NCBI RefSeq assembly: GCF_009914755.1
Contig: NC_060926.1
Strand: one strand, 5' to 3'
Origin: the human T2T-CHM13v2.0 reference genome, Homo sapiens
Length of the DNA stretch: 64,000 nucleotides
Part shown: positions 2,098 through 27,269 of the stretch, piece by piece
Layout of the letters: each line of letters opens with the position of its first letter
Numbering within the stretch: the stretch's first letter is position 1
Position numbers and translations under genes: made by a program
Notes under the pieces: generated by a model
Seen by the model: the letters and a program-made list of their open reading frames with translations, nothing else
What the model was told of the DNA's origin: nothing
The model's database searches: none

Positions 2098-2471
2098 TGT
2101 ATTAATCCATTCTCACTCTGATATAAAGAACTGCCCAAGATTGGGTAATTTATAAAGAAAATAATTTTAATTGACTCACTTCTGCATGGCTGGGGAGGCC
2201 TCAAGAAACTTACAATCATGGTGGAAATGGAAGAGGCATGTTTTACATGGTGGCAGGCGAGAGAGAGCAAGTGCATGAAGAAGGAACTGTCAGACACTTA
2301 TGAAACCACCAAATCTTGTGAGAACTCACTCACTATCATGAGAATAGCAGAGGAGACAGCATTCCCATGAACCAATCACCTCCCACGAGGTATCTCCCTG
2401 AACATGTGGAGATTATGGGGCTTACAATTCAATATGAGATTTGGGTGGGGACATAAAACCTAACCATATCA
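2098..2471 (-). mobile_element. THE1/MST-family (ERVL-MaLR) solo LTR, THE1D/MSTA-like
   Basis: Starts TGTATTAATCCATTCTCAC and ends GGGTGGGGACATAAAACCTAACCATATCA, the reverse complement of MaLR LTR termini. Perfect 5-bp TSD AGCAC at 2093-2097 and 2472-2476. Confidence 0.92.
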
Positions 2472-4899: not shown

Positions 4900-5150
4900 G
4901 CGAATCAGGGCCATGAGCTGCGGGCTGGCCCTCTACACCACGACCGCATGTGGGAATCTAAGAATTCTAAATTCTGCCTAGTTCTAAATTCTAAATTCTG
5001 CCTGGGCTTTTGGATCATGTGAAGGTATGTATTTCAAGGTAGGAAAATAGAATGTGGGTTATTCAACCGTTTGTTAGATTGATTTATAACTTTTGAATAT
5101 TAGACATATCATTTGTGGGCTTCCATATTTATTCTTCCCCTACCCTCACC
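4900..5150. mobile_element. Probable ancient hAT/Tip100-type DNA transposon relic
   Basis: TTTCAAGGTAGGAAAATAGAA...TTGATTTATAACTTTTGAATATTAGACATAT...GTGGGCTTCCAT resembles recalled Tip100-family non-autonomous consensus. No TIRs confirmed. Confidence 0.35.
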
Positions 5151-6797: not shown

Positions 6798-7590
6798 TAT
6801 ATATATATTACATATATATTATATATATAATATATATTCTTTTATATATTATATATGGTATATATTCTTTTATATATTATATATAATATATATTCTTTTA
6901 TATATTATATATAGTATATATTCTTTTATATATTATATATAGTATATATTCTTTTATATATTATATATAGTATATATTCTTTTATATATTATATATAGTA
7001 TATATTCTTTTATATATTATATATAGTATATATTCTTTTATATATTATATATAGTATATATTCTTTTATATATTATATATATAATATATATTCTTTTATA
7101 TATCATATATAATATATATTCTTTTATATATTATATATAATATATATTCTTTTATATATTATATATCATGTATATATAATATACAAAATATATATAGATT
7201 TTATATATAGATTATTACATAATAGAATATATTATATATTATATATAATATATACATAATATATAATATTATATATGATATAATATATATCATATATATC
7301 ATATAATATATATTATATATCATATATTATATATAATAATATATAGATTATATATAATTATATATATAATATATATAATTATATATATTATCTATATATA
7401 GATAATATATATAATTATATATAATATATTATATAGATTATATATAATTATATTATATACAAAATCTATATATAATATATATTATATTATATATAATATA
7501 CATAACTATATAAAAAATATAATATATAATATATATAATATATAATATATATACTATATATATTATATATATAATATATATATATATAAT
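6798..7590. repeat. AT-rich minisatellite: ~12 copies of a 28-bp unit followed by degenerate (TA)-rich sequence
   Basis: Unit TATATATTCTTTTATATATTATATATAG. The anchor TTCTTTTATA recurs at 6837, 6865, 6893, 6921, 6949, 6977, 7005, 7033, 7061, 7091, 7119 and 7147. Confidence 0.97.
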
Positions 7591-8103
7591 GTTTCTGGAA
7601 ATTGTCCTATTGGTGAACAGCAAATGAAGAAACATCTATTCAATAATCTTTACAAAAATTTGTTAAGAAATTAAGAATTTGTGGTATTTTGACCAAAACC
7701 ACTTCCTCTTTCTCTCACTCCCAACTCAGTGAGGTAGAGACTCTACTCCAGATTGATGCCACAAAAAACACAGGGCTCACTCTCTCCCAGCACCCAAATA
7801 GAGGGCTTTTTTATTGGGGCTACCATGTCATAGTATACAGGATGTCAGTGTTTCTCATTCTGTTCCCAGTTTCCTGTTACTGAGGCTAAGTCCTGGGAAA
7901 GTTTGGTTGAGTGGTAGGGGTTCCCTTTTTGTGCCAAGCCCTCACTTGTGAAATGGAGGCTCCCCCACTGGGCACAGTGTGCTCAGAACACTGAACCCCT
8001 GATGACTCTTGCCCCAGCTTGTGAGGCTATGGTTCCGCACTAGGAAAAGCAAGCTGAGAAAACCCAAGGTTTGTGCCACCTTCTCCATGAGGCTTTTGCC
8101 TCC

Positions 8104-8533
8104 TGTATTAGTCTGTTCTTGCATTGCTATAAAGAAATACCTGAAGCTGGGTAGTTTATAAAGAAAATAAATTTAATTGGCTCATGATTCTGCAGGCTGT
8201 ACAGGAAGCATGGTGCTAGCATCTCCTCAGCTTCTGGGGAGGCCTCAGAAAATTTACAATCGTGGTGGAAGGTGAAGGGGAGCATGAACTTCACTGGAGT
8301 ACATGGTTGCAGTAGGAGCAAGAACAAGAGCAGGGGAAGTGCTACACACTTTTAAATAACCAGATCTTTCAAGAACTCACTATCAGGAGAATAGCACCAA
8401 GAGGATGGCGCTAAACCATTCATGGAGGATCCACTACCATGATCCAGTCATCTCCAACCAGGCCCCACCTCCAACATTGGGGATTACAATTGAACATAAG
8501 ATATGGGTGGGGACACAGACCCAAACCATATCA
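8104..8533 (-). mobile_element. MSTA/MSTB solo LTR (ERVL-MaLR)
   Basis: TGTATTAGTCTGTTCTTGCATTGCTATAAAGAAATACCTGA...GGCTGTACAGGAAGCATGG...GGGACACAGACCCAAACCATATCA. Confidence 0.92.
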
Positions 8534-8659
8534 AGCTCCTAAATCAGTGATGTCATTAAGAAAGCAGCTTGTCATTGTCTCCATCCCCAGCTTCAGAGCC
8601 CTGGTTCATAGATTTAGCCTGGAAAGAGAAACGGGCTATAAAGCAGATAGGATAGCTTC

Positions 8660-9340
8660 CAGGAAGTAACATCAGCAAGATGGTAAAATAGGAAATCTCA
8701 GGCTCCACTTCCCACTACAGAAAGTTCAACTACTAGGTTGATGTAAAAGTAATTGCAGTTTTTGCCACTGAAAGTAATGACAAAACCGTAATTACTTTTG
8801 CACCAACCTAATAGCAACTCTTCTCAAGATAGGACATCTTTTTGAAAACCACAACACTTGGAAACAAACTGGAGATATCACATGTTCTGTAGAACTGAAT
8901 GAAATATAAATTAGAAGGGTAAGAAGAATGATCTCACTCTATGTCAACCCCCTCCCATCCAACCCCATGTCTGCAATGCCAGATGAAGATTTCCCTGGTC
9001 CCACAGTTTCTACAGGGAAAAAAGAGAACTGAGAATCAGAGGCAATCATCCAGCTTCTCTAGCATTCCAAGATACTTCTCAGGAAGCCCACTCTTGTCTC
9101 ATCTCACAGGGAATACTTGGAAAAACGTTACGGCTATAGGGCCTGGGGTCAGGTAGGAACAAAGAAAGGAGACAGAGGTAATTACCCACCTGCAAAGCTG
9201 ATCTAGTTGCCCTCAGAATCCTGGTGGGAAGCAAAAATTAGCTTGAGTTTCTAGAATGCTAGTTTTTCCACCTAGCCTCAGGGTCCACCTCAATGACCAG
9301 ACCCAAACAGGGAGACACTGGTCTCTGCTCATTTTGGAAT
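8660..9340 (+). mobile_element. L1 5'UTR fragment (L1M/L1MA-type), probably the 5' end of the L1MA that follows
   Basis: GGAAGTAACATCAGCAAGATGG...AGGCTCCACTTCCC...AGAAAGTTCAAC(MADE1)TAGCAACT, with the CAAGATGG YY1-type start typical of L1 5' ends. Confidence 0.55.
8733..8811. mobile_element. MADE1 (Hsmar1-derived mariner MITE)
   Basis: 79-bp palindrome CTAGGTTGATGTAAAAGTAATTGCAGTTTTTGCC...GACAAAACCGTAATTACTTTTGCACCAACCTAA, with TA target duplication at 8731-8732 and 8812-8813. Confidence 0.95.
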
Positions 9341-10457
9341 AGCAAAGTAGCTAGACCACATTATTCAGATAGAAGATTGATAAGGAAACATTGGGCTTAA
9401 ACAACACTTTAGACCAAAGGGACCTAGTAGACATATACAGAGCATTTCATCCAACATTAACAGAATACACTTTCTTCTCAAGTGCACGTGGAACATTCTT
9501 CTGGATAGATCACACGTTAGGGCACTAAATATGCATCAGCAAATTTAAGAAGAATGAAACTATATCAAGTATCTTTTCTAACCACAATAAAATGAAACTA
9601 GAAATCCATAACAGGAAGAATTTTGGGAAATTCACAAATACATAGAAACTAAACAACATGCTTCTGAACAATTAATGAGTTAATAAAGAAGTTAAAAGGA
9701 AAATGTAAAAATATCTTCGAAAAAATTAAAATGGAAACACAACATACCAAAACTTGTAGGATACAGCAAAGGAAGTTCTAACAAGAAAGTTTACAGCCAT
9801 AAGCACATCAAAAAGCAGAAAGATCTCAAGAAAATGACCTGAAGTTACATAGCAAGTAACTGGAAATTAAGAACAAACTAAGCCCAAAGTTAGCAGAAGG
9901 AAATAATAAAGATTAGAGCAGAAATAAATAAAATAGAGACTAAAAAAAATGCAAAAGATCAACACAACTAAGAATTGGTTCTTTGAAAAAATAAAATAGA
10001 GAAATCTTTAGCTAGACTAACTAAGAAAAAATGAGAGAAGATCAAATAAAATTAGAAATAAAAGAGAAGACATTAAATTGATACCACAGAAACACAAAAA
10101 GAAAATATTACTAAGAAAAATAAAATGCCAACAAATCTGATAACCTAGAAGAAATGAATTTCTAGACACATACCAATGCTATTCTCTAAATGAATAACTT
10201 TCTAGACAATCTACCAAGACTGAATAATGAAGAAATAGAAAATCTGAACAAATCAGTAATGAATAAGGAGATTGAATCAGTAATAAAAAGTCTCCCCCAA
10301 GAAAATCTCAAGACTTGATGGTTTCATGACTAAATTCTACCAAACGTTTAAAAAGGATATAGTAATAATTATTCTTAAAGTAATCTAAGAAGAAATACTT
10401 TTAAACTCTTTTCATAAGGTCAGAATTACCCTGATACCCAACACAAAGACATTACAA

Positions 10458-10580
10458 AGGAAGGAAGGAAGGAAGGGAGGGAGGGAGGGGAAGGGAGAGA
10501 GAGAGAGAGAGAGAGAAAGAAGAAAAGAAAGAGGGAGAGAAAAAGAGAAAGAAAGGAAGGAAGCAAGAAAGGAAAAAAAC
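10458..10580. repeat. Polypurine (GGAA)n/(GA)n/(GAAA)n simple repeat inside the L1MA
   Basis: AGGAAGGAAGGAAGGAAGGGAGGGAGGGAGGGGAAGGGAGAGAGAGAG..., an almost pure A/G strand. Confidence 0.95.
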
Positions 10581-11638
10581 TAGTGGCCAATATCCTTGAT
10601 GAAGATATGAAGATAGATGGAAAAATCTTCAGCAAAATGCTAGCAAATAAAATTCTCCAACACATTATATCAAGTGAGATTAATCTCTGGGATGGAAGGA
10701 TGATTCAACATACACAAGTCAATACATATGATGTATCATATTAACAAAATGAAAAACAAAGACCATATTATCAATTCATTAGGTGCAGAAAAGGTAATTG
10801 AGAGAATTCAACATTTTTTTTTGTGATAAAAACTGTCACCAAATTAAGTATTGAAGAAATGTACCTAAACACAATACAGGCCATATTGAAAAGTTCACAG
10901 CTAACATTAAAGTCAACAGTGAAAAGTCTTTCCTTAAAGATCTGGAACAAGAAAAGGATGCCCACCCCATCTACCTCTGTTCAATGTAGTATTGGGAGTC
11001 CTTGTCAGAGCAATTAGGCAGGAGAATGAAACAAAAGGCATGCAAATAGGAAAGAAAGGAGCAAAATTGTTTACTTTCAGAGAGCAGTCTTTCAGAAATT
11101 ATTTGCTGATGATATGACATTATATAATAGAGAAAACCCTAAAGACTCCACCAAAAAACTGTTAGAACTAATAAATGAATATAGTAAAGTTGCAGGATAC
11201 AAAATAAACACACAAAAATCAGAAGAGTTTTTATACACTAATAATGAATCATCTGAAAAATAAATTAAAAGAGCAATCCTATTTAAAAGAGCTAAAAAAA
11301 GAAATTATATACTTAGAATAAATTTACTGAAGAAGGTGAAAAACCTGTACACTCAAAATGTAAAACATCAGTGGGAGAAACTAGATACAAATAAATGGAA
11401 AAATACCTTGTGTTCATGGATAAGAATAGTTAATATTGTCAAAATATCCATACTGCTCAAAGTGATCTAGAGATTCTATGCAATCACTAGCAAAATTCCA
11501 ATATCTTTCTTTTATAGAAAAATAAAAAAATCCTAAAATTTGTATGGAGCTGCAAAAAAACCCCAAATAGCCAAGGCAATCAGAAGCTAAGAACACCAAG
11601 CTGGAGGTATCACATTACCTGATTTCAAACTATACTAA

Positions 11639-11991
<353 letters not shown>

Positions 11992-12285
11992 TTATTTTTA
12001 TTTTTTTAAAACAATGCCTCACTCTGTTGCCCAGGCTGGAGTGCAGTGGCATGAACATGGCACACCGAGGCCTCAATTTCCTGGGTTCAAGTAATCCTCC
12101 CACCTCAGTCTCCTGAGTAGCTGAGACCACAGGCACACATCACCATGCCCAGCTGATTGTTTTATTTTTTGTAGAGATGAGGTTTTGCCATGTTGCCCAG
12201 GCTAGTCTTGAACTCCTGGGCTCAATCTTCCAGCCTCAGCTTCCCAAAGTGCTTGGATTACAGACATAAGCCACAACCCCCAGCC
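11992..12285 (-). mobile_element. AluJ
   Basis: AluJ diagnostics: TTGCCATGTTGCCCAGGCT, AACTCCTGGGCTCAA, GCTGAGACCACAGG. The flanks share AAAGCTA, where the host L1 resumes. Confidence 0.92.
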
Positions 12286-15184
12286 AAAGCTATAATAATT
12301 AAAATAGTATGCTACCAGCAAAAAATAGGAACATTGACCAATGAAACAGAATAGAGAGCCCAAAAATGAACCCATGCATGTAGAGTCAATTGATTTTCAA
12401 TAAAGTTGCCAAGAACATGCAATGGAAAAAGGACAGTTCCTTCAATAAATGGAGTTGGAAAACTGGACATCTATATATAAAAGAACAGAACTGAGCCCTT
12501 ATCTCACAGCATATACAAAAAGCTCGAAGACAAAGTCTTCAAATTAACACAATTCAACAAAGACAAAAAAGAATAAGAAAACATAAACAAAGTCTTCAAA
12601 CAGACTGGAATTATGTTCCATGACCAAACCTAAGAATAATTGGTGTTCCTAAGGAAGTAGAGAAATCTAAAAGTTTGGAAAACATATTCTGGGGAGTAAC
12701 TGAGGAAAACTTCCCTGGCCTGGCTAGAAACCTAGACATCCAACTACAAGAAGCACAGAAAACACCTGAGAAATTCATGGCAAAAAATCGTCACCTAGGC
12801 ACATTTCATCGGGTTAAACTAAATTTAAGATGAAGGAAAACATTTTAAGAGGTGTGAGACAAAACCACCAGGTAACCTATAAAAAAAAAAACAAAAAACC
12901 TATAAGATTAACAGCAGATTTCTCAGCAGAAAACCTACAAGCTAGAAGGGTCTGGGGCCCTATCTTCAGCTGCCACAAACAAAACAATTATCAGCCAAGA
13001 ATTTTGTATCCAGCAAAACTAAGCTTCATATATGAAAGAAAGATACAGTATTTTTCAGAAAAACAAATGCTGAAACAATTCACACTATCAAGCCACCACT
13101 ACAAGAATTGCTAAAAGGAGTTCTAAATCTTGAAAAAAATCCTGGAAACACATCAAAACAGATCCTCTTTAAGCATAAATCTTACAGGACCTATAAAACA
13201 AAAATACAATTACAAAACAAAAAATCAAGGTATACAGCCAACAAATAGCATGATGAATGAAATGGTACGTCACATCTCAATACCAGTGTTGAATGTAAAT
13301 GGTATAAATGCTCCACTTAAAAGACACAGAATTGTAGAATGGATAAGAATTCGCCAAACAACTATCTGCTGCCTTCAAGAGATTCACCTAACACATAAGG
13401 ACTCACACAAACTTAAGGTAAAGGGGTAGAAAGAGACATTTCATGCAAATGGACACCAAAACCAAGTAGGAGTAGCTATCCTTATATCAGACAAAACAAC
13501 CTTTAAAGCAAAAACAGTTAAAAATACAAAAAGGAAAATTATATGATGATAAAAGGTATTATCCAACAGGAAAATATCACAATCCTAAACATATATGCAC
13601 CTATAACGCTGGGGCTCACAAATTTATAAAACAATTACTATTAGATCTAAGAAATGAAAGAGACAGCAACACAATAATAGTGGGGGACTTCAGTACTACA
13701 CTAAGAGCACAAGACAGGTCATCAAGACAGAAAGTCAACAAAGAAACAATGAATTTAAACTATAGCCTGAAACAAATGGACTTAATGTATATGCAAAGAA
13801 CATTCCATCCAACAACCACAGAATATACATGCTATTCAACAGCACATGAAACTTTCTCCAAGCTAGACCATATGATAAACCACAAAAGAAGCCACAGTAA
13901 AATTAAGAAAATTGAAATTATATCAAGCACTCTCTCAGACCACAGTGGAATAAAACTGCAAATCAACTCTAAAAGGAACCCTCAAAATCATGCAAATACA
14001 GGATAAATAACCTGCTCCTGAATGATCACTAGGTCAAAAATGAAATCAAAATGGAAATTAAAAAATTATTCAAACTACACGACAATAGTGACAAAAAACA
14101 TATCAAAACCTTTGGCATACAGCAAAGACAGTGCTAAGAGGAAAGTTTGTAGCCCTAAATGCCTACATCAAAAAGTCTGAAAGAGCACAAACAGACAATC
14201 TAAGGTCATACCTCAAGGAACCAGAGAAACAATAAAAAACCAAACCCAAACCCAGCAGAAGAAAGAAAATACCAAGATCAGAGCAGAATTAATGACACTG
14301 AAACAAAATAAACAATATAAAAGATAAATAAAACAAAAAGCTGGTTCTTTGAAAAGAAAAGAAAATTGATAGACCATTAGCAACATTAACCAGCAAAAGA
14401 AGAAAGACAATACAAATAAGCTCAGTAAGAAACAAAATGGGAGATATTACAACTGACACCATAGAAATACAAAAGATCATTCAAGGGTACTATAACACCT
14501 TTATGTGCATAAACTAGAAAACCTAGAAGAGATGGATAAATTCCTGGAAAGATACAACCCTCTGAGCTTAAATCAGGAAGAATTAGATACCCTGAAAAGG
14601 CCAATAACAAGCCACGAGATTGAAATGGTAATTAAAAAATTACCAACAACAAAAAAGCCTAGGACCAGATGTATTCACAGCAGAATTCTACCAGACATTC
14701 AAAAAAGAATTGGTACCAATCCTATTGACACTATTACACAAGACAGAGGAAGAGGGAACCCTCCCTAAATCATTCTAAGAAGCCAGTAACACCCAAATAC
14801 CGAATCCAGGAAAAGACATAACGAAAAAAGAAAACTACAGACCAATATCCCTGATGAACACAGATGAAAAATCCTTAGCAAAATACTAGCTAACCGAATC
14901 CAACAACATATCAAAAAGATAATCCACCATGATCAAGTGAGTTCCATACCAAGGATGCAGGGATGGTTTAACATATGCAAGTCAACAAATGTGATACACC
15001 AAATAAACAGAATTAAAAATAAAAATCACATAATTATCCCAAATGAAGAAAAAGCATTTGACAAAATCCAGCCTCCCTTTATAATTAAAACTCTCGGCAA
15101 TATCAGTATAGAGGGATATACCTCAATATCATAAGAGCCATCTATGACAAACCCACAGCCAACATAATACTGAATGGGGGAAAG

Positions 15185-15547
15185 TTGAAAGCATTCCCTC
15201 TGAGAACTGGAACAAGACAAGGATTTCCATTCTCACCACTCCTCTTCAACATAGTACTGGAAGTTCTAGCCAGAGCAATCATACAAGAGAAAGAAATAAA
15301 GGGCATCCATATAGGTAAAGGGGAAGTCAAACTGTTGCTCTTTGGTGATGATATGATTGTTTACCTAGAAAACCCTAAAGACTCCTCCAGAAAGCTCCTA
15401 GAACTGATAAAAGAATTCAGCAAATTTTCTGGATACAAAATTAATGTACACAAATCAGTAGCTCTTCTATACGCCAACAGCAACCAAGCTGAGAATCGCA
15501 TAAAAAACTCAACCTTTTTTCCAATAACTGCAAAAAGAAATAAATAA
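15185..15547 (+). pseudogene. L1 ORF2 reverse-transcriptase core fragment (dead; FGDD instead of FADD)
   Basis: ORF track: [23 protein letters not shown]...[15 protein letters not shown]...[10 protein letters not shown]. Flanked by stops and frameshifts. Confidence 0.9.
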
Positions 15548-16874
15548 ATAAGCACTTTGGAATCCACCTAACCAAGAAGGTTAAAGACCTCTACAAGAAA
15601 AACTGTAAAACACTGCGGAAAGATATCATAGACAACACAAACAAGTGGAAACAAATCCCATGCTCATGGAAGGGTAGGATCAATGTTGTGAAAATGACCA
15701 TACTGCCAAAAGCCACCTACCAAATCAATGCAATTCCCATTGAAATATCACCATCATTCTTCACAGAAATAAAAAAATTTCTAAAGTTCATATGAAACCA
15801 AAAAAGAGCCTGCATAGCCAAAGCAAAAATAAGCAAGGAGAACAAATCTGGAGGTATCACATTACCTGATATCAAACTATAAGGCTATAGTCACCAAAAC
15901 AGCATGATACTGGTATAAAAATAGACACATAGACCAATGGAACAGAATAGAGAACCCAGAAATAAACCCAAATGCCTACAGCAAACTGATCATTGACCAG
16001 GCAAACAAAAACCTAAAGTGCTAGGAAAATTGGCTAGCCACATGTAGGAGAATAAAACTGGATCCTCATGTATGACATTATACAAAAATCAACTCGAGTT
16101 GGATTAAGGACTTAAATCTAAGACCTGAAACTACAAAAATTCTGAAAGATAACATTGAAAGAAACCCTTGTAGACATTGGCTTAGGCAAGGATTTCATGA
16201 TGAATAACCAAAGAAAATGCAATAAAAACAAAGATAAATTACCGGGACTTATTCAAACTAAAGAGCTTCTGCACGGCAAAAGGAACAGTCAGCAGAGTAA
16301 ACAGAGAACCCACAGAGTGGGACAAAATCTTCACTATCTATACATCTGACAAATGACTAAAATCCAGAATCTACAATGAACTCAAACAAATCAACAAGAA
16401 AACAACAAACCGATCAAAAATTGGGCTAGGAAAATAAATAGACAATTCTCAAAAGAAGATATACAAATGGCCAACAAACATGAAAAAAATGCTAAATATC
16501 ACTAATGTTCAGGGATATGGGAATCAAAACCACAATGCAATACCACCTTACTCCTGCAAAAATGGCCATAATCAAAAAATAGTCGATGTTGGTGTGGATG
16601 TGGTGAACAGTGAACACTTCCACACTGCTGGTGGGAATGCAAACTAGTATAACCACTATGGAAAAAAGTGTGGAGGTTCCTTAATGAACTAAAAGTAGAA
16701 CTACCATTTGATCCAGCAGTCCCACTACTGGGTATCTACACAGAGGAAAGTAAATCATTATACAAAGGATACTTGCACATACATATTTATAACAGCACAA
16801 TTCACAATTGCAAAAATGTGGAACCAACCCAAATGCCCATCCATCAATGAGTGTATAAAGCAACTGATTATTTT

Positions 16875-16876
16875 AT

Positions 16877-16928
<52 letters not shown>
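16875..16928. repeat. (TA)n microsatellite in the L1PB 3' region
   Basis: TATATACATACATACATATATATA..., with about 20 pure TA units. Confidence 0.95.
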
Positions 16929-16930
<2 letters not shown>

Positions 16931-17320
16931 ACACGATGGAATAGTACTCAGCCATAAAAAATAATTAATTTATGGCATTTGCAGTGACCTGGATAAGATT
17001 GGAGACTATTATTCCAAGTGAAGTAACTCAGGAATGGAAAAATAAACATCTCATGTTGTCACTCATAAGTGGGAGCTAAGCTGTGAGGATGCAAAGGCAT
17101 AAGAATGACACAGTGAACTTTGGGGACTCAGGGGAAAAGGGTAGAAAGGGGTTGAGGGATAAAAGACTACAAGTAGGGTGCAGTATATACTGCTTGGATG
17201 ATGGGTGCACCAAAATCTTACAAATTGCTGCTAAAGAACTTACTCATGTAACAAAACACCATCTGTTCCCCAAAAACTTATGGTAATAAAAATACTAAAA
17301 AAATTAAAAATAAATTTAAA

Positions 17321-17671
17321 AAATCAACTCAAAATGAATTAAACACTTAAATGTAAAACCAGAAACTGCAAAACTAGTAGCAGAAAACACAGGAGAAAAA
17401 CTACATGACATTTGTCTGGGAATTGATTGCTTTTACCCCAAAAGTGCAAGCAGCAAAAGCAAAAATAGACAAATGGGATGTCTTCTGCACAGCAAAGGAA
17501 ACCATGAAAACGATACAGAAACCACTGTCAGATTGGAAGAAAACATCTGCAAATCATACACATTTGATAAGAGATAAATATCTAAAATATATAAGAAGCT
17601 CAAACAGCTCACTAGCAAGAAAAGAAACAAAAGATTTTAAAAATGGACAAGGGATCTGAATAGACATTAAA

Positions 17672-17711
<40 letters not shown>

Positions 17712-18097
17712 TCAATGTTGCTAATCATTAGAGAAATGTAAATGAAAACCGCAATGAAATATCATCTCACACCTTCAGAATGGCTATTATCAAAAGACAA
17801 AAGATAATTATTGGCAAAAATGTACAAAAAAAAAGGGAACACTCGTATACTGCTAGTATCAATGTAAATTAGTAGAGCCATTATGGAAAACTCTATGGAA
17901 GTTCTTCAAAAAACTAAAAATTGTACCATCACATGATCCAGTAAAACAACTTCTGGATATCTACCCAACATATTTGAAATCAGTTTGTCAGAGATGGCTG
18001 CACCCCCATGTTGCAGCACTATGCAAAATAGCCAAGGCATGGAATCAACATAAATGTTTATTAACAGATGATTGGATAAAGAAAATGTTATACATAT
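17321..18097 (+). mobile_element. L1MA host element, part 2 (ORF2 C-terminal region), 3'-truncated
   Basis: AATCAACTCAAAATGAATTAAACACTTAAATGT...TTTGAAATCAGTTTGTCAGAGA...GGATAAAGAAAATGT. Contains a (TA)n at ~17672-17709. Confidence 0.85.
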
Positions 18098-21000
18098 AGT
18101 TCATATATATGGTATTTGTAAAAAAGTTCATATATATACTGTTTCATTTCATTCTTATGCCTTTGCATCCTCATAGCTTAGCTCCCACTTATGAGTGACA
18201 ACATACGATGTTTGGTTTTCCATTCCTGAGCTACTTCACTTAGAATAATAGTGATTATGATTCCAGTCTCATCCAAGTTGCTGCAAAGGCCATTAATTCA
18301 TTCATTTTTATGGCTGACTAGTATTTCATCATATACACATACCATAGTTTCTTTATCCACTCGTTGATTGATGGGCATTTGGGTTGGTTCCACATCTTTA
18401 CTATTGCTAATTGTGCTGCTATAAATATGTATGTGCAAGTATCATTTTGTATAACAACTTATTTTCCTCTGGGTAGATACCCAATAGTGGGATAGCTGGA
18501 TCAAATGGTAGTTCTACTTTCAGGTCATTAAGGAATCACCACACTTTTTTCCATAGTAGTTTACATTCCCACCAACAGTGTGGAAGTGTTCCCTGTCACC
18601 GCATCCATGCCAACTCCTCTTACTATTTTTTTTTATAATGTCCATTCTTGAAGGAGCAAGGTGGTATTTCACTGTGGTTTTTATTTGGATTCCGCTGATC
18701 ATTTGTGATGTTGAGCATTTTTTCATATGTTTGTTGGCCATTTTGTGTATTTTCTTTTGAGAACTGAGAATTCATTTCCTTAGCCCACTTTTTGGTAAGA
18801 TTGTTTGTTTTCTTCTTGATAAGTTGTTTGAGTGTGTTGTAGATTCTGGATACTAAACTTTAGTCAGCTGTATAGATCGTGAAGATTTTGTCCCACTCTG
18901 TGGGTTCCCTGTTTACTCTGCTGACTGCTCCTTTTGCCGTGCAAAAAATCTTTAGTTTAAATAAGTCCCAGCAATTTGCCTTTGTTTTTATTGCATTTGC
19001 CTTTGAGTTTGTTGTCATGAAATCCTTGCCTAAGCCAATGTCTGGAAGGGCTTTTCCAATGTTATCTTCTGGAATTTTATAGTTTCAGGTCTTAGATTTA
19101 AGTCCTTAATCCATCTTGAGTTGATTTTTGTATAATGTCAGACATAAGGATACAGTTTCATTCTCCTACATGTGGCTAGCCAGTTATCCTAGCACCATTT
19201 GTTGAATAGGGTGTCCTTTCCCCACTTTAGGTTTTTGTTTGTCATGTCAAATATCAGTTTGCTGGAAGTATTTGGGTCTATTTCTGGGTTCCCTATTCTG
19301 TTCCATTGGTCTATGTGCCTATTTTTATACCAGTATCATGCTGTTTTGGTGACTATAGCCTTATAGTATAGTTTGAAATCAGGTAATATGATGCCTCCAG
19401 ATTTGTTCTTCTTGCTTAGTCTTGCTTTGGCTATGCAGGCTCTTTTTTTGTTTCATATGAATTTCAGATTTTTATTTCTGTGAAGAATGATGGTGATATT
19501 TCAATGGGAATTGCATTGATTTGGTAGGTGGCTTTTGGCAGTATGGTCATTTTCACAATATTGATTCTACCCTTCCATGAGCATGGGATTTGTTTCCATT
19601 TGTTTGTGTTGTCTACGATTTCTTTCTGTAGTATTTTGCAGTTTTTCTTCTGGATGTATTTCACTTCCTTGGTTAGGTATATTCTGAAGTATTTTATTTT
19701 TTTACAGCTATTGGAAAAAAGGTTGAGTTTTTTATGTGATTCTTAGCTTGGTTGCCATTGGTGTATAGAAGAGCTACTGATTTGTGTACATTAATTTTGT
19801 ATCCAGAAAATTTGCTGAATTCTTTTATCAGTTCTAGGAGCTTTCTGGAGGAGTCTTTAGGGTTTTCTAGGTAAACAATCATATCATCACCAAAGAGCAA
19901 CAGTTTGACTTCCCCTTTACCTATATGGATGCCCTTTATTTCTTTCTCTTGTATGCTTGCACTGGCTAGAACTTCCAGTATTATGTTGAAGAGGAGTGGT
20001 GAGAGTGGGTATCGTTGTCTTGTTCCAGTTCTCAGAGGGAATGCTTTCAACTTTTCCTCATTCAGTATTATGTTGGCCGTGGGTTTGTCATAGATGGCTT
20101 TTATTACATTGAGGTGTGTCCCTTGTATGCCAATATTGCTGAGTTTTAGTCATAAAGCAATGCTGGATTTTGTGAAATGCTTTTTCTCCATCTATTGAGA
20201 TGATCACGTAATTTTTGTTTTTAATTCTGTTTATGTGGTGTATCATATTTATTGACTTGCATATGTTAAAACATTCCTGCCTCCTTGGTATGAAACCCAC
20301 CTGATCATGGTGGATTATCTTTTCGATATTGTTGGATTTGGTTAGCTAGTGTTTTATTAATGATTTGTGCATCTATGTTCATTAGGGATATTGGTTTGTA
20401 GTTTTCTTTTTTTAGTTATGTCTTTTCCTGGTTTTGGTATTAGGTTGATACTGGCCTCATAGAATGAAACTATTCTCTTTTTTTCTCTATCTTGTGGAAT
20501 AGTGTCAATAGGATTGGTACCAATTCTTTTTTGAATGTCTGGTAGAGTTCTGCTGTGAATCTGTCAGGTCCTGCACTTTTGTTGTTTGTTTGTTAATTTT
20601 TTAATTACCATTTAAATCTTGTTGCTTCTTATTGGTCTGTTCAATGTATCTAACTCTTCCTGGTTTAAGCTTGGAGGGTTGAATCTTTCTGGGAATTTAT
20701 CCATCTCTTCTAGATTTTCTAGTTTACAGGCATACAGGTGTTCATAGTAGCCTTGAATGATCTTTTGTATTTCTATGGTGTCAGTTGTAATATCTCCCAT
20801 ATTGTTTCTTACTGAGCTTATTTGTATTGTCTCTCTTCTTTTGCTGGTTAATGTTGCTAATGGTCTATCAATTTTATTTATCTTTTCAAAGAACCAGCTT
20901 TTTGTTTTGTTTATCTTTTGATTGTTTATTTTGTTTCAGTTGCATTAATTCTGCTCTAATCTTGGTAATTTTCTTTCTTCTGCTGGTTTTGGGTTTGGTT

Positions 21001-21340
21001 TGTTCTTGTTTCTCTAGTTCCTTGGGGTGTGACCTTAGATTGTCTGTTTATGCTCTTTCAGACTTTTTGATGTGGGCATTTAGGGCTATGAACTTTCCTC
21101 TTAGCACCACCATTGCCGTATCCCACAGGTTTTTTGTTTGTTTGTTTTGTTCATTTGTTTCTCAATATTGTCATTCAGTTCGAATAATTTTTTAATTTCC
21201 ATTTTGATTTCGTTTTTGACCCAATAATCATTCAGGAGCAGGTTCTTTATTTTTCCTGTATTTGCATAATTTTGAGGGTTCCTTTTGGTACTGATTTCCA
21301 GTTTTATTCCACTGTGGTCTGAGAGAGTGCTTAATATTAT

Positions 21341-22003
21341 TTAAATTTTCTTAAGTTTATTGAGGCTTGTTTTGTGGTCTATCATATGGTCTAGCTTGTA
21401 GAAAGTTCCATGTGCTGTTGAATAAAAGGTATATTCTGTAGTTGTTGGGTAGAATGTTCTGTAAATGTCTGTTAAGTTCATTTGTTCCAGCATATAACAT
21501 ACATTTATTGTTTCTTTGTTGACTTTCTGTGTTGATGACCTGTCTAGTACCGCTAGTGAAGTATTGAAGTTCCCCACTATTATTATGTTGCTCTCTATCT
21601 CATTTCTTAGATCTATTAGTAATTGTTTTATAAATTTGGGAGCTCCAGTGTTAGGTGCATATATGTTTAGGATTGTGGTATTTTCCTGTTGGACAAGGTC
21701 TTTTATCATTATATAACTTTCCTCTTTGTATTTTTTAACTGCTGTTGCTTTAAAGTTTGTTTTGTCTAATATAAGAATAGCTACCTCTACTTGGTTTTGG
21801 TGTCCATTTGCATGAAATGTCTTTTTCCACCCATTTACCTTAAATTTGTGTGAGTCCTTATGTGTTTGGTGAGTCTCTTGAAGGCAGCAGATAGTTGGTT
21901 GGTGAATTCTTATCCATTCTGCAATTCTGTATCTTTTAAGTGGAGCATTTATGCCATTTATATTCAACAATAGTACTGAGATGTGAGGTACCATTCCATT
22001 CAT
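21341..22003 (-). pseudogene. L1 ORF2 APE-type endonuclease domain fragment (220 aa open stretch)
   Basis: MNGMVPHISVLLLNINGINAPLKR...CCLQETH...LNIYAPNTGAPKFIKQ...IVGNFNT...YKLDHMI. GDFN appears as GNFN, and the frame ends in a stop. Confidence 0.9.
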
Positions 22004-22375
22004 TGTGCTGTTTGTTGCCTGTATACCTTGGTTTTTTGTTTTCTGATTTTTTTAAATTGTATTTTTGTTTTATAGTTCCTGTGAGATTCATGATTTAAAA
22101 AGGTTCTGTTTTGATGTATTTCCAGGACTTCTTTTAAGATTTAGGGCTCCTTTTAACAGTCCTTTGAGCAGTTCTTGTAGTTTGGGGGTGATGAATTCTC
22201 TCAACATTTGTTTTTCTGAAAAAGACTGTCTCTTTCCTTCATTTATGAAGCTTAGTTTTGCTGGTTACAAAATTGTGGTTGATAATTGTTTTTGTTTAAT
22301 GAGGCTGAAGATAGAGCCCAGACCCTCCTAGCTTGTAGGGTTTCTGCTGAGAAATCTGCTGTTATCTAATAGGTT

Positions 22376-22442
22376 TTAGATATAGACATAGATATAGATA
22401 TAGATATAGATATATAGATATAGATAATGATATACATATAGA
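22376..22442. repeat. (TAGATA)n simple repeat in L1PB ORF1
   Basis: TAGATATAGACATAGATATAGATATAGATATAGATA... Confidence 0.9.
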
Positions 22443-24124
22443 TTACCTGGTGCTTTTGCCTCACAGCGCTTAAAATTCTTCCCTTAATCTTAACTTTAGC
22501 TAACTTGATAACAATGTGACTAGGTGATGATCTTTTTGTGATAAATTTCCCAGGTGTTCTTTGAGCTTCTTGTATTTTGATGTCTAGGTCTCTAGAAAGG
22601 CTGGGGAACTTTTCCTCAATTATCCCCCAAATATGTTTTTCAAACTTTTAGATTTCTCCTCTTCCTCAGCAATGCCAATTTTTCTTAGGTTTGGTCATTT
22701 AACAAAGCCCAGACATCTTGGAGGCTTTGTTTGTATTTTCTTATTCTTTTTTCTTTGTCTTTGTTGAATTGGGTTAATTCTAAAACCTTATCTTCAAGCT
22801 CTGATGTTCTTTCTTTTGGCTGTTCAATTCTATTGCTGAGACTTTCCAGAGCATTTTGCATTTATATAAGTGCATCCATTGTTTCCTGAAGTTTTCATTG
22901 TCTTTATTTATGCTCTCATTGAAAAGTTTTTGCTTCACTTTTTGTGTCATTTTTTTTTATTTCCTTAATTTGGGCTTTACCTCTCTCTTGTGCCTCCCTG
23001 GTTAGCTTAATAACTAACCTTCTGAATTATTTTTCAGGTAAATCAGGGATTTTTTTCTTGGTTTGAATCCATTGCAGGTGAGCTAGTGTGATTTTCTGAG
23101 TGTGTTAAAGAACCTCGTTTTGTCATATTACCAGAGTTTGTTTTCTGGTTCTCTCTCATTTGGGTAGTAGAGCTCAAGGCTGTTGTTCTGATTCTTTCGT
23201 TCCACAGCATGCTCCCTTGATGTAGTATTCTCTCCCTTTTCCTACGTATGTGGCTTCCTGAGAGCCAAGCTGTAGTGGTTGTTATCTCTCTTCTGGATCT
23301 AGCCACCCAGCAAATTTACCAGGCTCCAGGCTGGTACTGGGGGTTGTCTGCACAGAGTCCTGTGGTGCGAACCATCTGCAGGTCTCTCAGCTGTGGATAG
23401 CAGCACCTGCTCCAGTGGAGGTGGCAGGGGGATGTTGGTTGTTTCATGCACTATTTTTGTGCTAGTAGGCTTCCTGCCAGGAGGTGATACTTTCCAGAGA
23501 GCATCAGTTGTGGTCGTATGGGAAGGAATAGGCGGTGGGCGGGGCCCTAGAATCCCAAGAGTATATGCCCTTTGTCTTCGTTTACAGGGTGGGTAGAGAA
23601 GGACCATTAGGTAGGGGCAGGGCTGGGCCTGCCTGAGCTCAGACTCTCGGTGGGTAGGTCTTGTTGCAGCTGCTATGTGGGGGATGGGAGTGAGGTTCCC
23701 AGGTCAACAAAATTATGTTCCTATGAGGATTGTGGCTGCATCTTGTGTCATGCAGGTTGTCAGGGAAGTGAAGCAAAGTCGGCAGTCACAGGCCTCACCC
23801 AGCTCCCATGCAACCCAAAGGGCCGTTTCACTTCCACCATGCCCCCGCAACAGCACTGAGTCTGTTTCCAGGCAGCGGGTGAGCAGGGCTGAAAACTTGC
23901 CACAGGCTACCCACCCCCAGCTGCAAAAGTAAGCAGGGCTTTCACTCTTCCCCCAACCTGTGGAGTCTGCACATTGGATTTATGCCCTCCCCTGAGTTCT
24001 GGCCAGGAGACTTCTTGATAGATTCAAATTGTTATAAAGCTCAGCTGGAGGTTTCCTTCTCCCTGTGGCCTCTTCCCAGTGCCTCTGGCCACACTCCCCA
24101 AGGACTCTTGTGAGGCAAAGGAAT

Positions 24125-24592
24125 ATTAGAAAAGACACCAAAAACACAAGCAACAAAAGAAGAAATATATGTAAATTGGACTTCATTAAAAAAAAATTGT
24201 GCACCAAAAGACCATTAAAAAAGTGACACCCACAGAATGGGACAGAACATTTACAAATCATGTATCTGATGAAGGGCTTGTATCCAGAATTTATTAAAAC
24301 AAAAACTTTTATAATAAAATAATAAATGAACACATAACCTAATTAAAGAATGGGCAAAGGATCGGAATAGAAATTTATCCAAGAAATATATGCAAATGGC
24401 CAGTAAGCATCTGAAAAGATGCTCAACATCATTAGTTATTAGAGAAAGCAACTCAAAACCACATGAGATTCTACCGCACACTAATTAGGATAGCTAGAAT
24501 CAAAAGCCAGATAACAACAAATGCTGGTAAGGATGTAAAGAAGTTAGAAGCCTCATACACTGCCAGTGGAAAAGTAAAATTGGTGCAGTCAC
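24125..24592 (+). mobile_element. Old L1 (L1MB/L1MD-type) ORF2 3' fragment
   Basis: ACACCAAAAACACAAGCAACAAAAG...ATGGCCAGTAAGCATCTGAAAAGATGCTCAACATCATTAG...AAATTGGTGCAGTCAC. Confidence 0.8.
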
Positions 24593-26455
24593 ACCCAACA
24601 GATTCCCTGCCCTTATTAGAATACAGATTGTGCTCACAAAGAAAACAACCAGAGAACAAGACCAAGAATTAGGTAAATGGCTTGACCCTCCCCTCCCCCA
24701 TGAAAGCAGAGTTTGGCAAGAGTAATCAGGGAAGACTGGTTTGTTTGTTTGTTTGTTCGCTTCTTTTTTAAGTGAAAATGGAATTTGTTTGAGAAATGTA
24801 TTAGATAAGAATGGTATAGCAAAGAATGAAAGGTCAGAAGCAAGAATCAACTTGACCTGAAGGAGGGCTATCTGCTTGCTGGGAAGAGAGAGTTTAATCA
24901 AGGGGTGGGAGAGATGGCGATAGATATGAAAGGTGGGTGCCCTGAATATGAGAATTATACTTTATCACCATTGAAGAGTGGCTTCTGATAGAGTTGATCC
25001 TAAGAACCCTTTCACTAGGAAGTGATTTTGCTTTGAATATTCAGAGAGGGAAAATTAGGATTTTTATTTTATATCAGTAGGCTATACCTTGAACCAACAG
25101 ATAAAGTGGAAGACATTTGAATGGATTATCAACATGACAGGATCTCCTTCAGAGCAAATGCCTACATACATAACTAAACAAAATTAGTTTTTAAAACAAA
25201 GGTATATTTTAAGGGAGAAAAAGTAACTAGCTGTGAAACCTCTCAACATTTCTTTTCTGGAGCTCACAGAGAGCCCTAGGGCTGTCTTTACAACTACCCA
25301 ACAAGCTCTTGAAGAGGAACTTTTCCTGTGATTTAATAACACCATTCCCAGAAAACAAAACCTAACTTTTAAAATACTCACTAAGAGAATGGAGGCAGAG
25401 GGATATGTTGGTAGCCAGCGAACAATTCATTATCTTTGTGAAAACAAACATGTAAATAATCATTTATTTAATTTCATGAATGAAGAGTGGGCAACAGAGA
25501 AAGTAAATCCTTTTCAGACACTATGCTGGTGGCGGTAAAAACGCTTTCACCCTACCCTGTGGTCCCACTGACATCGTGGTGCTAAAGTGAAAATACTCTA
25601 CCCATTCTAATAGGCTGAAAATAAAAATAAACAGCTTAATTATATGGTGGGTGTTTGTGAATGGCTTCCTGAATTTTAAAGTGCTCATGATATGTCTCTA
25701 TTATCTTCACACACCACAAGCCTTCCTCCCTTGAAGTACTCAATGAATTAAGATTAATGCAACAGATAAGAAGCATCATGTTTTGAACTCTGGTGTCTGT
25801 ATTTATTTTCATCATTGAAAAGGTGGGGAAGTGATAAACACCATGGCAACCTTGTTGCCCATATATTTTCTTGAATGTCATGCTTAGCTCAAAACTTTTA
25901 CTTCAAATCAGGGGATTGAGAAATACCGGTATAGAAATATTCTATTGGTTTTCTTTGGTTAACTGAGACTGGGAGTTGTAGGTTTTGGGATATGTTACAA
26001 GCTTTTGGAGGGTAGAACCATATCTATACCACTTGGTATGGTGCTGCGTTGAAACGAAAGTCTAAGTAACAGCTTCATGAAAACAATGAAAATACAATGT
26101 CATGTTACTAAAAACAAAAAAAATTAACTCTTTTTCTCTAAAAGTTAATTGGTGAGCTGTGAGCCAATTGGCCACCTTTTTTTGGAACTATTTTGCATTA
26201 AAATTATGGATGAGGAGAGATGTGGGAGGAAGACAAGGAGGATAAAAAGAAAGAGAAAAAAGGAGAACAAAAGGAAGAAGGGAAAAATAAAAAAAGAAAG
26301 TCATAAAGAAGAGAAAGAAAGAAGTCCAGAATTTTTACAATTAAGCAAATGTGGTTTTCAAAATGTTCCACCAGGAGCTTATGCATATATTTGAATAAAT
26401 TGATAACTGGAATTTCTCTTTTTAAGCTGTCCTAGAGACAATTTACTTGTCATAA

Positions 26456-26796
<341 letters not shown>

Positions 26797-27269
26797 TAAA
26801 ATGTATTACCTACCATATTCATCTGTTTTAATTGTGAATTACATTCCCCCCCACCCCCCCACCGCCAAATATCAGTCTGGGATGGTCTTTTGAAAGAAGG
26901 GGATGCAAATCTGCAGAAGATACACAAAATTGAATTCTTACCATGTGCACTGAAAAAACAACAACGACAACAAAAAGTGGGTCTGCTGAGAGAGAATAGA
27001 AAAGCACATGCACACAGAGAAAGGAGAGATATAGGTGGAGGAAAAGCTCTCCCTGGATTTTTTTTACTCTTTCCATTTCCTGTTTCCTGAAGTCCCTTGG
27101 GTTCTAAGAGACACCTTTGTAGCTTTTACTTTGTTTTATCTCAGGTACAGAAGCTTTTCTTATTCATGTTTCTCAGTTCATTGTATTCTCTTACTGGCTT
27201 ATGAAAGACCCCTCTGTTTTATGACCTTACGTATAAACAGAAGTAAGAATGTAAATAAGATATATATAT

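What the first reader, a model, noticed from the sequence alone, without database searches (positions are those of the whole stretch)
12521..24120. Inverted L1PB pair with a mosaic of homogenised tracts: candidate recurrent gene-conversion / inversion locus
Seen: two L1PB copies (12521-17320 +, 18139-24120 -) face each other across an ~820-bp spacer, with homologous positions summing to ~35,235-35,245. Identity is very patchy by hand alignment: 193/193 (15280-15472 vs 19763-19955), then 75/95 (15551-15645 vs 19599-19693), then 90/90 (15686-15775 vs 19469-19558), plus 123/125 (14362-14486 vs 20751-20875). Established: L1PB stopped amplifying tens of millions of years ago, so independent copies should diverge fairly uniformly, and inverted repeats are substrates for NAHR inversion and arm-to-arm conversion. 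Inference: the arms have repeatedly exchanged sequence at different times. A crossover in a tract would invert the ~4-6 kb between them.
Basis: partly seen in the sequence, partly recalled or inferred. Interest (0 to 1): 0.85.

Follow-up and report, generated by a model that had tools for sequence, protein, structure and literature searches.

The report
Gene conversion between inverted L1 copies
Two long-dead L1 retrotransposons lying tail to tail on human chromosome 2 have recently copied a few short stretches of sequence from one to the other, a well-known kind of DNA repair event, and nothing here shows that the DNA between them has flipped.

Summary
Arm A (12521-17326, +) and arm B (18149-24120, -) are decayed L1 copies, 88.6% identical over about 4.6 kb. 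They contain perfect blocks of 193 bp and 90 bp, and a 125-bp block with 2 mismatches.

The blocks are neither chance nor a family trait. Across four tracts (436 bp in all), the arms share 28 variants that are rare or absent in 28 other genomic copies (6.4% of sites, against 1.4% outside). Differences between the arms almost vanish there. Among the copies scored genome-wide, only the two arms match the 193-bp and 90-bp tracts perfectly. Outside 14362-16100 the arms are no more alike than unrelated copies.

Best reading: recent non-reciprocal copying (non-allelic gene conversion) between two independently inserted L1s, probably in two or more events.

"Repeated exchange at different times" is not resolved (2 of 125 against 0 of 311 differences, p about 0.08). 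No inversion is shown. An older L1 runs unbroken across arm A's insertion, so this assembly carries the ancestral orientation. The subfamily name L1PB was not testable.

This is a new example of a known process, of moderate to low interest.

The parts
12521..17326 (+). Arm A: a 5'-truncated, decayed L1 with its own poly(A) tail (about 17285-17326).
   Evidence: Pfam matched an endonuclease at 13476-14006 (E 7.7e-05, 23 bits, below the curated cut-off of 24.5) and RVT_1 at 15089-15547. The reading frame is broken into pieces of at most 176 aa. The A-rich tail was read. The flanks are collinear pieces of one older L1.
18149..24120 (-). Arm B: an L1 with a complete 5' end but truncated at the 3' end (about 215 bp and the poly(A) are missing).
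   Evidence: Pfam matched an endonuclease at 21341-22051, RVT_1 at 19694-20149 and the ORF1 Transposase_22 domain at 22366-22647. All 39 other scored copies end their homology at window 24112-24120. Homology to arm A stops at 18149, which corresponds to A 17108.
17327..18148 (+). Spacer. It is the continuation of the older L1 fragment that arm A inserted into (to about 18112), followed by 36 bp that I could not assign. It contains a (TA)n run at 17674-17709.
   Evidence: One search places 17319-17680 at arm-A-equivalent positions 16084-16462, continuing from the left flank, which ends at about 16089-16097. Sequence was read.
12286..12520 (+). Left flank of arm A: the older L1 fragment, on the same strand as the spacer and continuous with it.
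14362..14486 (+). Tract T1 in arm A (partner 20751-20875 in arm B). 123 of 125 identical, with 6 shared rare variants.
   Evidence: The HMM called 14368-14474 with posterior 0.99.
20751..20875 (-). Tract T1 in arm B.
15280..15472 (+). Tract T2 in arm A (partner 19763-19955). 193 of 193 identical, with 7 shared rare variants. It lies inside the reverse-transcriptase coding remnant.
   Evidence: The two arms are the only perfect hits among the 40 of 4180 candidates scored genome-wide; the next best is 95%.
19763..19955 (-). Tract T2 in arm B.
15499..15526 (+). Tract T3 in arm A (partner 19709-19736). 28 of 28 identical, with 6 shared rare variants within 23 bp.
   Evidence: HMM posterior 0.87.
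19709..19736 (-). Tract T3 in arm B.
15686..15775 (+). Tract T4 in arm A (partner 19469-19558). 90 of 90 identical, with 9 shared rare variants.
   Evidence: The two arms are the only perfect hits among the 40 of 1041 candidates scored; the next best is 91-93%.
19469..19558 (-). Tract T4 in arm B.
15527..15645 (+). Unconverted, unusually divergent island between T3 and T4 (partner 19599-19708).
   Evidence: The rare-variant load is 13.4% in A and 12.7% in B, against a median of 4.8% and a maximum of 9.5% in 27 other copies. No third copy resembles either version; the best other matches are 87% (over part of the query) and 88%.

Best explanation
Two L1 elements inserted independently, tail to tail, tens of millions of years ago and decayed separately to about 86% identity. 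Much later, a DNA lesion in one arm was repaired using the other arm, 4-6 kb away on the same chromosome or sister chromatid, as the template. This is non-allelic (homeologous) gene conversion. It overwrote short stretches of one arm with the other arm's sequence, including that arm's private mutations.

Four tracts are visible, of 125, 193, 28 and 90 bp, all within 14362-15775. They lie in and just upstream of the reverse-transcriptase coding remnant. That is also where unrelated copies of the family share their longest identical blocks, so strand invasion is easiest there.

T1 is separated from the T2-T4 cluster by 793 bp of ordinary divergence, so two or more events are more likely than one.

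What is shown: the tracts, the shared private variants and the independent origin of the arms. What is inferred: the repair mechanism, the number of events, the direction of copying and the date.
For: (1) Perfect runs of 193 and 90 bp, against a shuffle null with mean 51. None of 200,000 shuffles reached 193. The maximum among 433 unrelated pairs was 106.

(2) I compared A and B site by site with 28-29 other genomic copies. In the four tracts, 28 of 436 columns carry a base shared by A and B but present in 15% or fewer of the other copies. Outside the tracts, within 13700-17100, it is 39 of 2875 (Fisher p = 4e-9). The tracts were defined by absence of differences, not by these variants, so the test is independent.

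(3) Along the arm, shared-rare and differing sites are strongly clustered: 95 label runs against 139.4 +/- 5.5 expected, with 0 of 20,000 shuffles as low. Runs of 9, 7 and 6 consecutive shared-rare sites occur.

(4) The shared-rare load in the tracts (6.4%) is about one arm's private load (224 and 242 of 4472 sites, 5.0% and 5.4%) plus the background of 1.3-1.4%. That is what is expected if a fully aged arm was copied.

(5) Genome search: the two arms are the only 100% matches to T2 and T4. The next best matches are 95% and 91-93%.

(6) Outside the zone, A-B identity is 0.849-0.867, no higher than identity to unrelated copies (medians 0.84-0.87, with 4 to 19 copies equal or better in most comparisons). 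In 14362-16100 it is 0.902, above all 28 other copies, whose maximum is 0.878. With A 12700-13500 as query, arm B was not among the 40 scored hits.

(7) Independent origin. Arm A has a poly(A) tail and sits precisely inside one older L1 whose two halves abut. Arm B carries 1.3 kb of 5' sequence that A lacks, and it ends where 39 of 39 other scored copies end.

(8) A two-state HMM recovers the same four tracts.
Against: - Direction of copying and non-reciprocity cannot be seen in one genome.
- No orthologous locus or second human assembly could be examined, so the pre-conversion state is inferred.
- Only 40 of 1041 to 13142 genome candidates were scored per search. A rarer copy sharing the variants could have been missed.
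- In a cruder all-pairs count, 7 of 434 other pairs had more shared-rare sites than A-B, which had 68. One is the duplicate pair L013/L014. The others have 533-1341 mismatches, and I take them, unchecked, to be badly aligned or truncated copies.
- The 90-bp run alone is matched or exceeded in length by 5 of 433 unrelated pairs.
- No GC bias is seen in the transferred variants: 9 weak-to-strong against 11 strong-to-weak, the same as private mutations.
- No PRDM9-type motif lies in the tracts. Nothing points specifically to meiotic recombination.
Confidence: 0.82

Rival explanations
1. The same non-reciprocal copying, but produced by replication template switching. A nascent strand stalls in one arm, folds back onto the complementary arm, copies tens to hundreds of bases and returns. 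On this view it is not double-strand-break repair by recombination.
For: The tracts are short (25-193 bp), discontinuous and between inverted copies 4-6 kb apart. There is no GC bias and no hotspot motif. That template switching perfects imperfect inverted repeats is my recall of the literature, not a call.
Against: The distance between the tract copies (3.7-6.3 kb) is, as I recall, much larger than for described short template switches. The end product is identical to gene conversion, so sequence alone cannot separate the two.
Confidence: 0.1
2. The arms are close relatives, either from the same rare source lineage or from an inverted DNA duplication of one L1. On this view the shared variants are inherited, not transferred.
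For: The background shared-rare rate outside the tracts is 1.3-1.4%. That is near the 95th percentile of other pairs (median 3.0 per kb, 95th percentile 11.9 per kb), so slight extra kinship or old, eroded conversions are possible.
Against: - Inherited variants would be spread evenly. They are clustered (z = -8.1), exactly where differences vanish.
- Outside the zone the arms are no closer than unrelated copies.
- Arm A has retrotransposition hallmarks of its own.
- Arm B has 5' sequence that A lacks.
Confidence: 0.02
3. Chance, or purifying conservation of the reverse-transcriptase region in the family. Long identical blocks would then exist simply because both arms still match the family sequence there.
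For: Unrelated pairs have their longest identical blocks in the same area. Of the 13 top unrelated pairs listed, 9 have their longest run starting at 14941-15361 and 3 at about 14210. Five of 433 pairs reach 90 bp.
Against: - No unrelated pair exceeds 106 bp.
- None of 200,000 shuffles reached 193 bp.
- The blocks are not family-like. They carry 28 variants that other copies lack.
Confidence: 0.01
4. An assembly or polishing artefact homogenised short stretches of the two arms.
For: Only one assembly was available, so there was no independent check.
Against: The arms differ by about 12-14% immediately beside each tract, so reads map unambiguously. I recall, with no call to support it, that long reads would span the whole 11.6-kb structure. 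An artefact would not be expected to produce blocks that carry one arm's full load of private variants.
Confidence: 0.02
5. One L1 insertion with a 5' inversion made by twin priming.
For: Inverted L1 segments lie next to each other.
Against: Twin priming gives adjacent, non-overlapping parts of one element. Here the arms cover the same 4.6 kb of L1 positions and are separated by 0.8 kb of an older element.
Confidence: 0

Closest known systems
Non-allelic gene conversion between neighbouring transposable-element copies (Alu homogenisation within about 10 kb). Known to me from passages of the review by Fawcett and Innan 2019 (PMC6598467), which cites Aleshin and Zhi 2010.
   Same: Short tracts are exchanged between nearby copies of one repeat family. 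They are detected as mosaic patterns of variants, and proximity matters.
   Different: Here the copies are 5-6 kb L1s in inverted orientation, about 86% identical, and old. The review passages I saw document Alu, not L1 pairs.
Human polymorphic inversions mediated by inverted repeats (Aguado et al. 2014, PMC3961182, passages seen; the 612-candidate catalogue PMC13629690, passages).
   Same: The architecture is the same: two inverted repeats, some of them L1s (L1PA3 and L1PA7 pairs are listed), bracketing a few kb.
   Different: Those pairs are highly identical, and the catalogue required more than 90% identity. This pair is 88.6% identical overall. No second orientation was seen here, and this assembly has the ancestral one.
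L1- and Alu-recombination inversions between human and chimpanzee (Lee et al. 2008, PMC2603318; only the search listing and the start of the abstract were seen).
   Same: Inverted retrotransposon pairs serve as substrates for recombination.
   Different: That paper reports completed inversions. Here only non-crossover products are seen.
Arm-to-arm gene conversion in sex-chromosome palindromes
   Same: Intrachromosomal conversion between inverted arms.
   Different: Palindrome arms arise by duplication and stay more than 99.9% identical along their whole length. Here two independent insertions are homogenised over only about 9% of the shared length (436 of about 4600 bp).
Repair of a double-strand break in a LINE by conversion from diverged endogenous LINEs in mouse cells
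   Same: Homeologous L1 copies serve as repair templates and give short tracts.
   Different: That was an induced break in cultured cells. This is a germline-fixed natural product.

Membership tests
Non-allelic (interlocus) gene conversion tract | Segments whose identity between paralogues is significantly above the background. | tested here: met
Non-allelic (interlocus) gene conversion tract | The tract carries derived variants shared by the two paralogues and absent from other family members. | tested here: met
   28 of 436 columns against 39 of 2875. Clustering is shown and genome-wide uniqueness.
Non-allelic (interlocus) gene conversion tract | The transfer is non-reciprocal and has a direction: one copy is overwritten, as shown by the ancestral state in orthologues. 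| not testable with these tools
   No other primate or human assembly is held.
LINE-1 retrotransposon | ORF2 with endonuclease and reverse-transcriptase domains, plus ORF1. | tested here: met
   RVT_1 is above its cut-off in both arms. Endonuclease is above its cut-off in B and below it in A (23 against 24.5 bits). Transposase_22 is found in B. All frames are broken.
LINE-1 retrotransposon | A 3' poly(A) tail and a target-site duplication. | tested here: inconclusive
   Arm A has a poly(A) tail, but the target is A-rich, so a duplication cannot be delimited. Arm B has neither, because its 3' end is missing.
L1PB subfamily | Diagnostic positions and 3' UTR matching the curated L1PB consensus. 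| not testable with these tools
   No repeat library is available. From recall only, arm A's 3' end does not resemble the L1PA type. Both arms are 84-87% identical to other copies.
Inversion by recombination between inverted repeats | Inverted repeats bracket the segment. | tested here: met
Inversion by recombination between inverted repeats | The inner flanks are swapped or reversed relative to the outer flanks. | tested here: not met
   The older L1 continues on the same strand across arm A.
Inversion by recombination between inverted repeats | Both orientations are found among haplotypes or species. | not testable with these tools
   There is one assembly only. Look-ups in supplementary tables found nothing at this place but were inconclusive.
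Twin-priming L1 inversion | The inverted and direct segments are adjacent, non-overlapping parts of one element. | tested here: not met
   The arms overlap over 4.6 kb of L1 positions.
Palindrome or inverted segmental duplication | The arms arise by DNA duplication and are near-identical throughout. | tested here: not met
   Outside the tract zone the arms are as different as unrelated copies. Arm A has its own insertion hallmarks.

The most novel reading that the evidence does not exclude
The pair is a currently active exchange site. On this reading the perfect tracts are specific to the human lineage or still polymorphic. The 193-bp identical block now gives enough uninterrupted identity for occasional crossovers, which would flip the roughly 4.3 kb between the tract copies in some people. 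The exchanges would also be mutagenic, leaving both arms with about 2.7 times the usual load of private changes in the 119 bp between tracts T3 and T4.
Probability: 0.1. Interest if true: 0.5.

Novelty: new member of a known kind. Interest (0 to 1): 0.3.

Why it matters
It is a clean, well-controlled example showing that old L1 copies about 14% diverged still exchange sequence when they lie close together.

This bears on two practical matters:
- Dating repeats by their divergence is distorted locally by such exchange.
- Conversion can create islands of perfect identity that could seed later rearrangement.

The locus has no annotated gene or functional element, so no phenotype is expected. Its main use would be as a test case for pangenome and ape-genome surveys of conversion between transposable elements.

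Tried and rejected
- **Third-copy donor.** I searched with the tracts and with the divergent island in each arm. None was found among the 40 candidates scored in each search.
- **GC-biased conversion.** No bias was seen: 9 against 11, compared with 133 against 136 for private changes.
- **PRDM9-type 13-mer.** None lies in the shared part of the arms. One lies in arm B's 5' UTR at 23834.
- **Rfam.** No RNA family was found in 9000-27000.
- **Ancient crossover.** I looked for a switch in the ratio of A-private to B-private changes along the arm. The counts per segment were 73/61, 50/81, 53/40 and 48/60 (chi-square p = 0.012). The heterogeneity is weak, the outgroup sets differ between segments, and I draw nothing from it.
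- **Long duplication of the target at arm B.** The old L1 fragment to the right of B (24128-24591) gives no BLAST match to the spacer. They are different old fragments, and B's target site cannot be reconstructed.
- **Published inversion calls at this place.**
  - The 17-plus inversions of PMC3961182 include none near chr2:59 Mb.
  - Supplement searches of PMC12350158 and PMC12350169 found no inversion at CHM13 chr2:59.40-59.42 Mb, but both files were cut when stored.
  - In PMC13629690, phrase searches across table columns do not work. My positive control failed, so say nothing.
  - Number prefixes 5936-5941 gave only unrelated numbers in that catalogue table. The catalogue uses hg38, and I do not know the offset from this assembly, so this is a weak negative.

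Full report
**1. What is there**

The window is human chr2 (T2T-CHM13), with no annotated gene. Two L1 elements lie tail to tail.

- Arm A (12521-17326, +) is 5'-truncated and ends in an A-rich tail at about 17285-17326.
- Arm B (18149-24120, -) reaches the family's normal 5' end. All 39 other scored copies stop matching at window 24112-24120.
- Arm B's homology stops at 18149, which corresponds to A 17108. It therefore lacks about the last 215 bp and any poly(A).

Pfam confirms that both arms are L1.

| Arm | Domain | Window coordinates |
|---|---|---|
| A | Endonuclease | 13476-14006 |
| A | Reverse transcriptase | 15089-15547 |
| B | Endonuclease | 21341-22051 |
| B | Reverse transcriptase | 19694-20149 |
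| B | ORF1 RNA-binding domain | 22366-22647 |

Arm A's endonuclease match (23 bits) falls below the curated cut-off of 24.5. Both arms are dead: the longest open stretch is 176 aa in A and 236 aa in B. The subfamily name L1PB could not be tested, because no repeat library is among the tools.

**2. Origin of the pair**

The sequence left of arm A (12286-12520) is an older, much more diverged L1 fragment. It ends at arm-A-equivalent position of about 16089-16097. The sequence right of A's poly(A) (17319 onward) resumes at equivalent position 16084, on the same strand.

- Arm A is therefore a simple retrotransposition into that older element.
- The 0.8-kb spacer is the older element's continuation, to about 18112 by my reading, followed by 36 bp I could not assign.
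- Arm B carries 1.3 kb of 5' sequence that A lacks.

Outside the zone described below, A and B are 0.849-0.867 identical. That is no more than either is to unrelated genomic copies, whose medians are 0.84-0.87. In most comparisons several copies equal or exceed the A-B value. With A 12700-13500 as query, arm B was not even among the 40 scored genome hits.

The arms are independent insertions. They are not an inverted duplication, and they are not a twin-priming product, because they cover the same 4.6 kb of L1 positions.

**3.

The global alignment has 4039 matches, 522 mismatches and 367 gap columns, which is 88.6% identity without gaps.

Perfect runs are 193 bp (15280-15472 against 19955-19763) and 90 bp (15686-15775 against 19558-19469). 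The next longest are 50, 49 and 49 bp. The block 14362-14486 is 123 of 125.

Two null distributions put these in context:
- Shuffling the 567 difference events over 4543 columns gave a mean longest run of 51 and a maximum of 143 in 200,000 trials.
- Among the 435 pairs of the 30 aligned copies, A-B and a 98%-identical duplicate pair (L013/L014) stand apart. The other 433 have a median longest run of 48, a 95th percentile of about 75 and a maximum of 106. Five of them reach 90 or more.

The 193-bp block is far outside both nulls. The 90-bp block is not decisive by length alone.

**4. Transfer rather than family trait**

I fetched 28 other copies covering A 13600-17400 and 29 covering 11200-15000 from the same genome. 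For every aligned column I counted how many of them share A's base and B's base.

Merged over 4472 columns, the counts were:

| Class of site | Columns |
|---|---|
| Shared by A and B but rare (15% or fewer of other copies) | 79 |
| Private to A | 224 |
| Private to B | 242 |
| Other differences | 92 |

The shared-rare sites cluster exactly where the differences vanish.

| Position range | Shared-rare sites |
|---|---|
| 14384-14425 | 6 |
| 15282-15425 | 7 |
| 15499-15521 | 6 |
| 15714-15772 | 9 |

- The label-runs test gave 95 runs against 139.4 +/- 5.5 expected. None of 20,000 shuffles was as low.
- In the four tracts the density is 28 of 436 (6.4%), against 39 of 2875 (1.4%) outside. Fisher p = 4e-9.
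- A two-state HMM returns the same four tracts.
- Genome searches with the 193-bp and 90-bp tracts find perfect matches only in the two arms. The next best matches are 95% and 91-93%. The caveat is that only 40 of 4180 and 40 of 1041 candidates were scored.
- In 14362-16100, A-B identity (0.902) exceeds that to all 28 other copies, whose maximum is 0.878.

A cruder all-pairs count of shared-rare sites is noisy. Seven other pairs exceed A-B in absolute number. One is the duplicate pair, and the rest have 533-1341 mismatches. I attribute those to poor alignment without having checked.

**5. Mechanism and timing (inference)**

The pattern is what non-reciprocal copying from one arm to the other leaves behind. 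The donor's private mutations become shared, and the recipient's are erased.

Three points bear on timing:
- The shared-rare load in the tracts (6.4%) equals one arm's whole private load (5.0-5.4%) plus the background (1.3-1.4%). The donor was already nearly as decayed as it is now.
- T2, T3 and T4 have 0 differences in 311 bp. The 95% upper bound is about 0.96%, against about 13.8% difference events outside the tracts (565 of 4107). These tracts therefore formed within roughly the last 7-10% of the arms' joint history.
- With recalled primate substitution rates of 0.5-1 x 10^-9 per site per year, that is under about 5-10 million years.

T1 has 2 differences in 125 bp, one private to each arm. 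That could mean it is older, or that it is three patches.

The contrast of 2 of 125 against 0 of 311 gives p of about 0.08 by my hand Fisher calculation. "Different times" is therefore not established.

T1 is separated from the T2-T4 cluster by 793 bp at ordinary divergence (A-B 0.864). That favours at least two events. One long heteroduplex with patchy mismatch repair remains possible.

The tracts sit in and just upstream of the reverse-transcriptase remnant. Unrelated copies also share their longest identical blocks there (9 of the 13 top unrelated pairs have their longest run starting at 14941-15361). This plausibly explains why exchange started there.

Double-strand-break repair and replication template switching give the same product and cannot be told apart here. 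There is no GC bias and no PRDM9-type motif in the tracts.

**6. Inversion**

A crossover between the arms would reverse the spacer. The inner flank of arm A would then be the reverse complement of arm B's former inner flank. Instead, the older L1 continues collinearly across arm A. This assembly therefore has the ancestral orientation, or has undergone an even number of flips.

- Overall identity (88.6%) is below the more-than-90% used to define inversion-prone repeats in the catalogue whose passages I read.
- The published tables I could search showed no inversion here, but those look-ups were incomplete or inconclusive.
- Supplements of bioRxiv preprints, and the cut parts of the stored files, could hold a call that I did not see.

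**7. Comparison with what is known**

Non-allelic gene conversion between nearby repeat copies is established for Alu, and it is favoured by proximity (passages of PMC6598467). Inverted L1 pairs are known substrates of polymorphic and fixed inversions (PMC3961182, passages; PMC2603318, listing only). This locus is a well-resolved new instance of the first process, in old and strongly diverged L1s. It is not shown to be an instance of the second.

**8. Verdict**

Gene conversion is strongly supported. Recurrence and inversion remain unproven. This is a new member of a known kind, with interest of about 0.3.

Noticed in passing
window 18113-18160: Arm B has lost its last ~215 bp and its poly(A). 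Between the end of the older L1 in the spacer (about 18112) and arm B (18149) lie 36 bp that match neither, including a 12-base motif repeated twice. This looks like a deletion junction at the inner edge of the inverted pair.
   Followed up: partly
window 15527-15645 and 19599-19708: Between tracts T3 and T4, both arms carry about 13% rare variants, partly in tight clusters. The median is 4.8% and the maximum 9.5% in 27 other copies. No third copy resembles either version. Possibly this is mutagenesis linked to the exchange. The region was picked after seeing the data, so the evidence is weak.
   Followed up: partly
window 15499-15521 and 19714-19736: Six shared rare changes within 23 bp turn the family sequence into a run of six A, a 7-base loop and a run of six T. 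A multi-base cluster like this, present in both arms, is itself strong evidence of copying. How it arose is unexplained.
   Followed up: no
window 39631-42292: An older L1 (72-73% identical to arm A) has a direct part on the - strand (39818-40690, arm-A positions 16025-16866) abutting an inverted part (40723-42292, positions 14449-16011). The two parts are adjacent and non-overlapping, which is the classic look of a twin-priming 5' inversion.
   Followed up: no
L013 and L014 (G000 C6:61.47 Mb and C6:57.23 Mb): These two copies of the family are 98% identical over 3.5 kb, with a 346-bp perfect run. They are presumably part of a pericentromeric segmental duplication.
   Followed up: no
window 16874-16928 and 17674-17709: (TA)n runs of 27.5 and 18.5 units lie in arm A's 3' region and in the spacer. 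Arm B has no such run at the homologous place (36 of 100 identity there).
   Followed up: no
window 24128-24591: The fragment right of arm B is another old L1 piece on the + strand. Its L1 positions overlap those of the spacer, yet it has no BLAST match to the spacer. Arm B is therefore flanked by two different old fragments, and its target site cannot be reconstructed.
   Followed up: partly
window 23834, 43881, 53387, 62354: There are four matches to the degenerate 13-base recombination-hotspot motif, against 0.55 expected. One lies in arm B's 5' UTR. I believe, unchecked, that two lie in Alu-like repeats.
   Followed up: no
about window 27273: A supplementary table of the 1,019-genome long-read study lists a 50-bp insertion polymorphism labelled chr2-59423273. 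If that label uses this assembly's coordinates, it lies 3 kb right of arm B.
   Followed up: no
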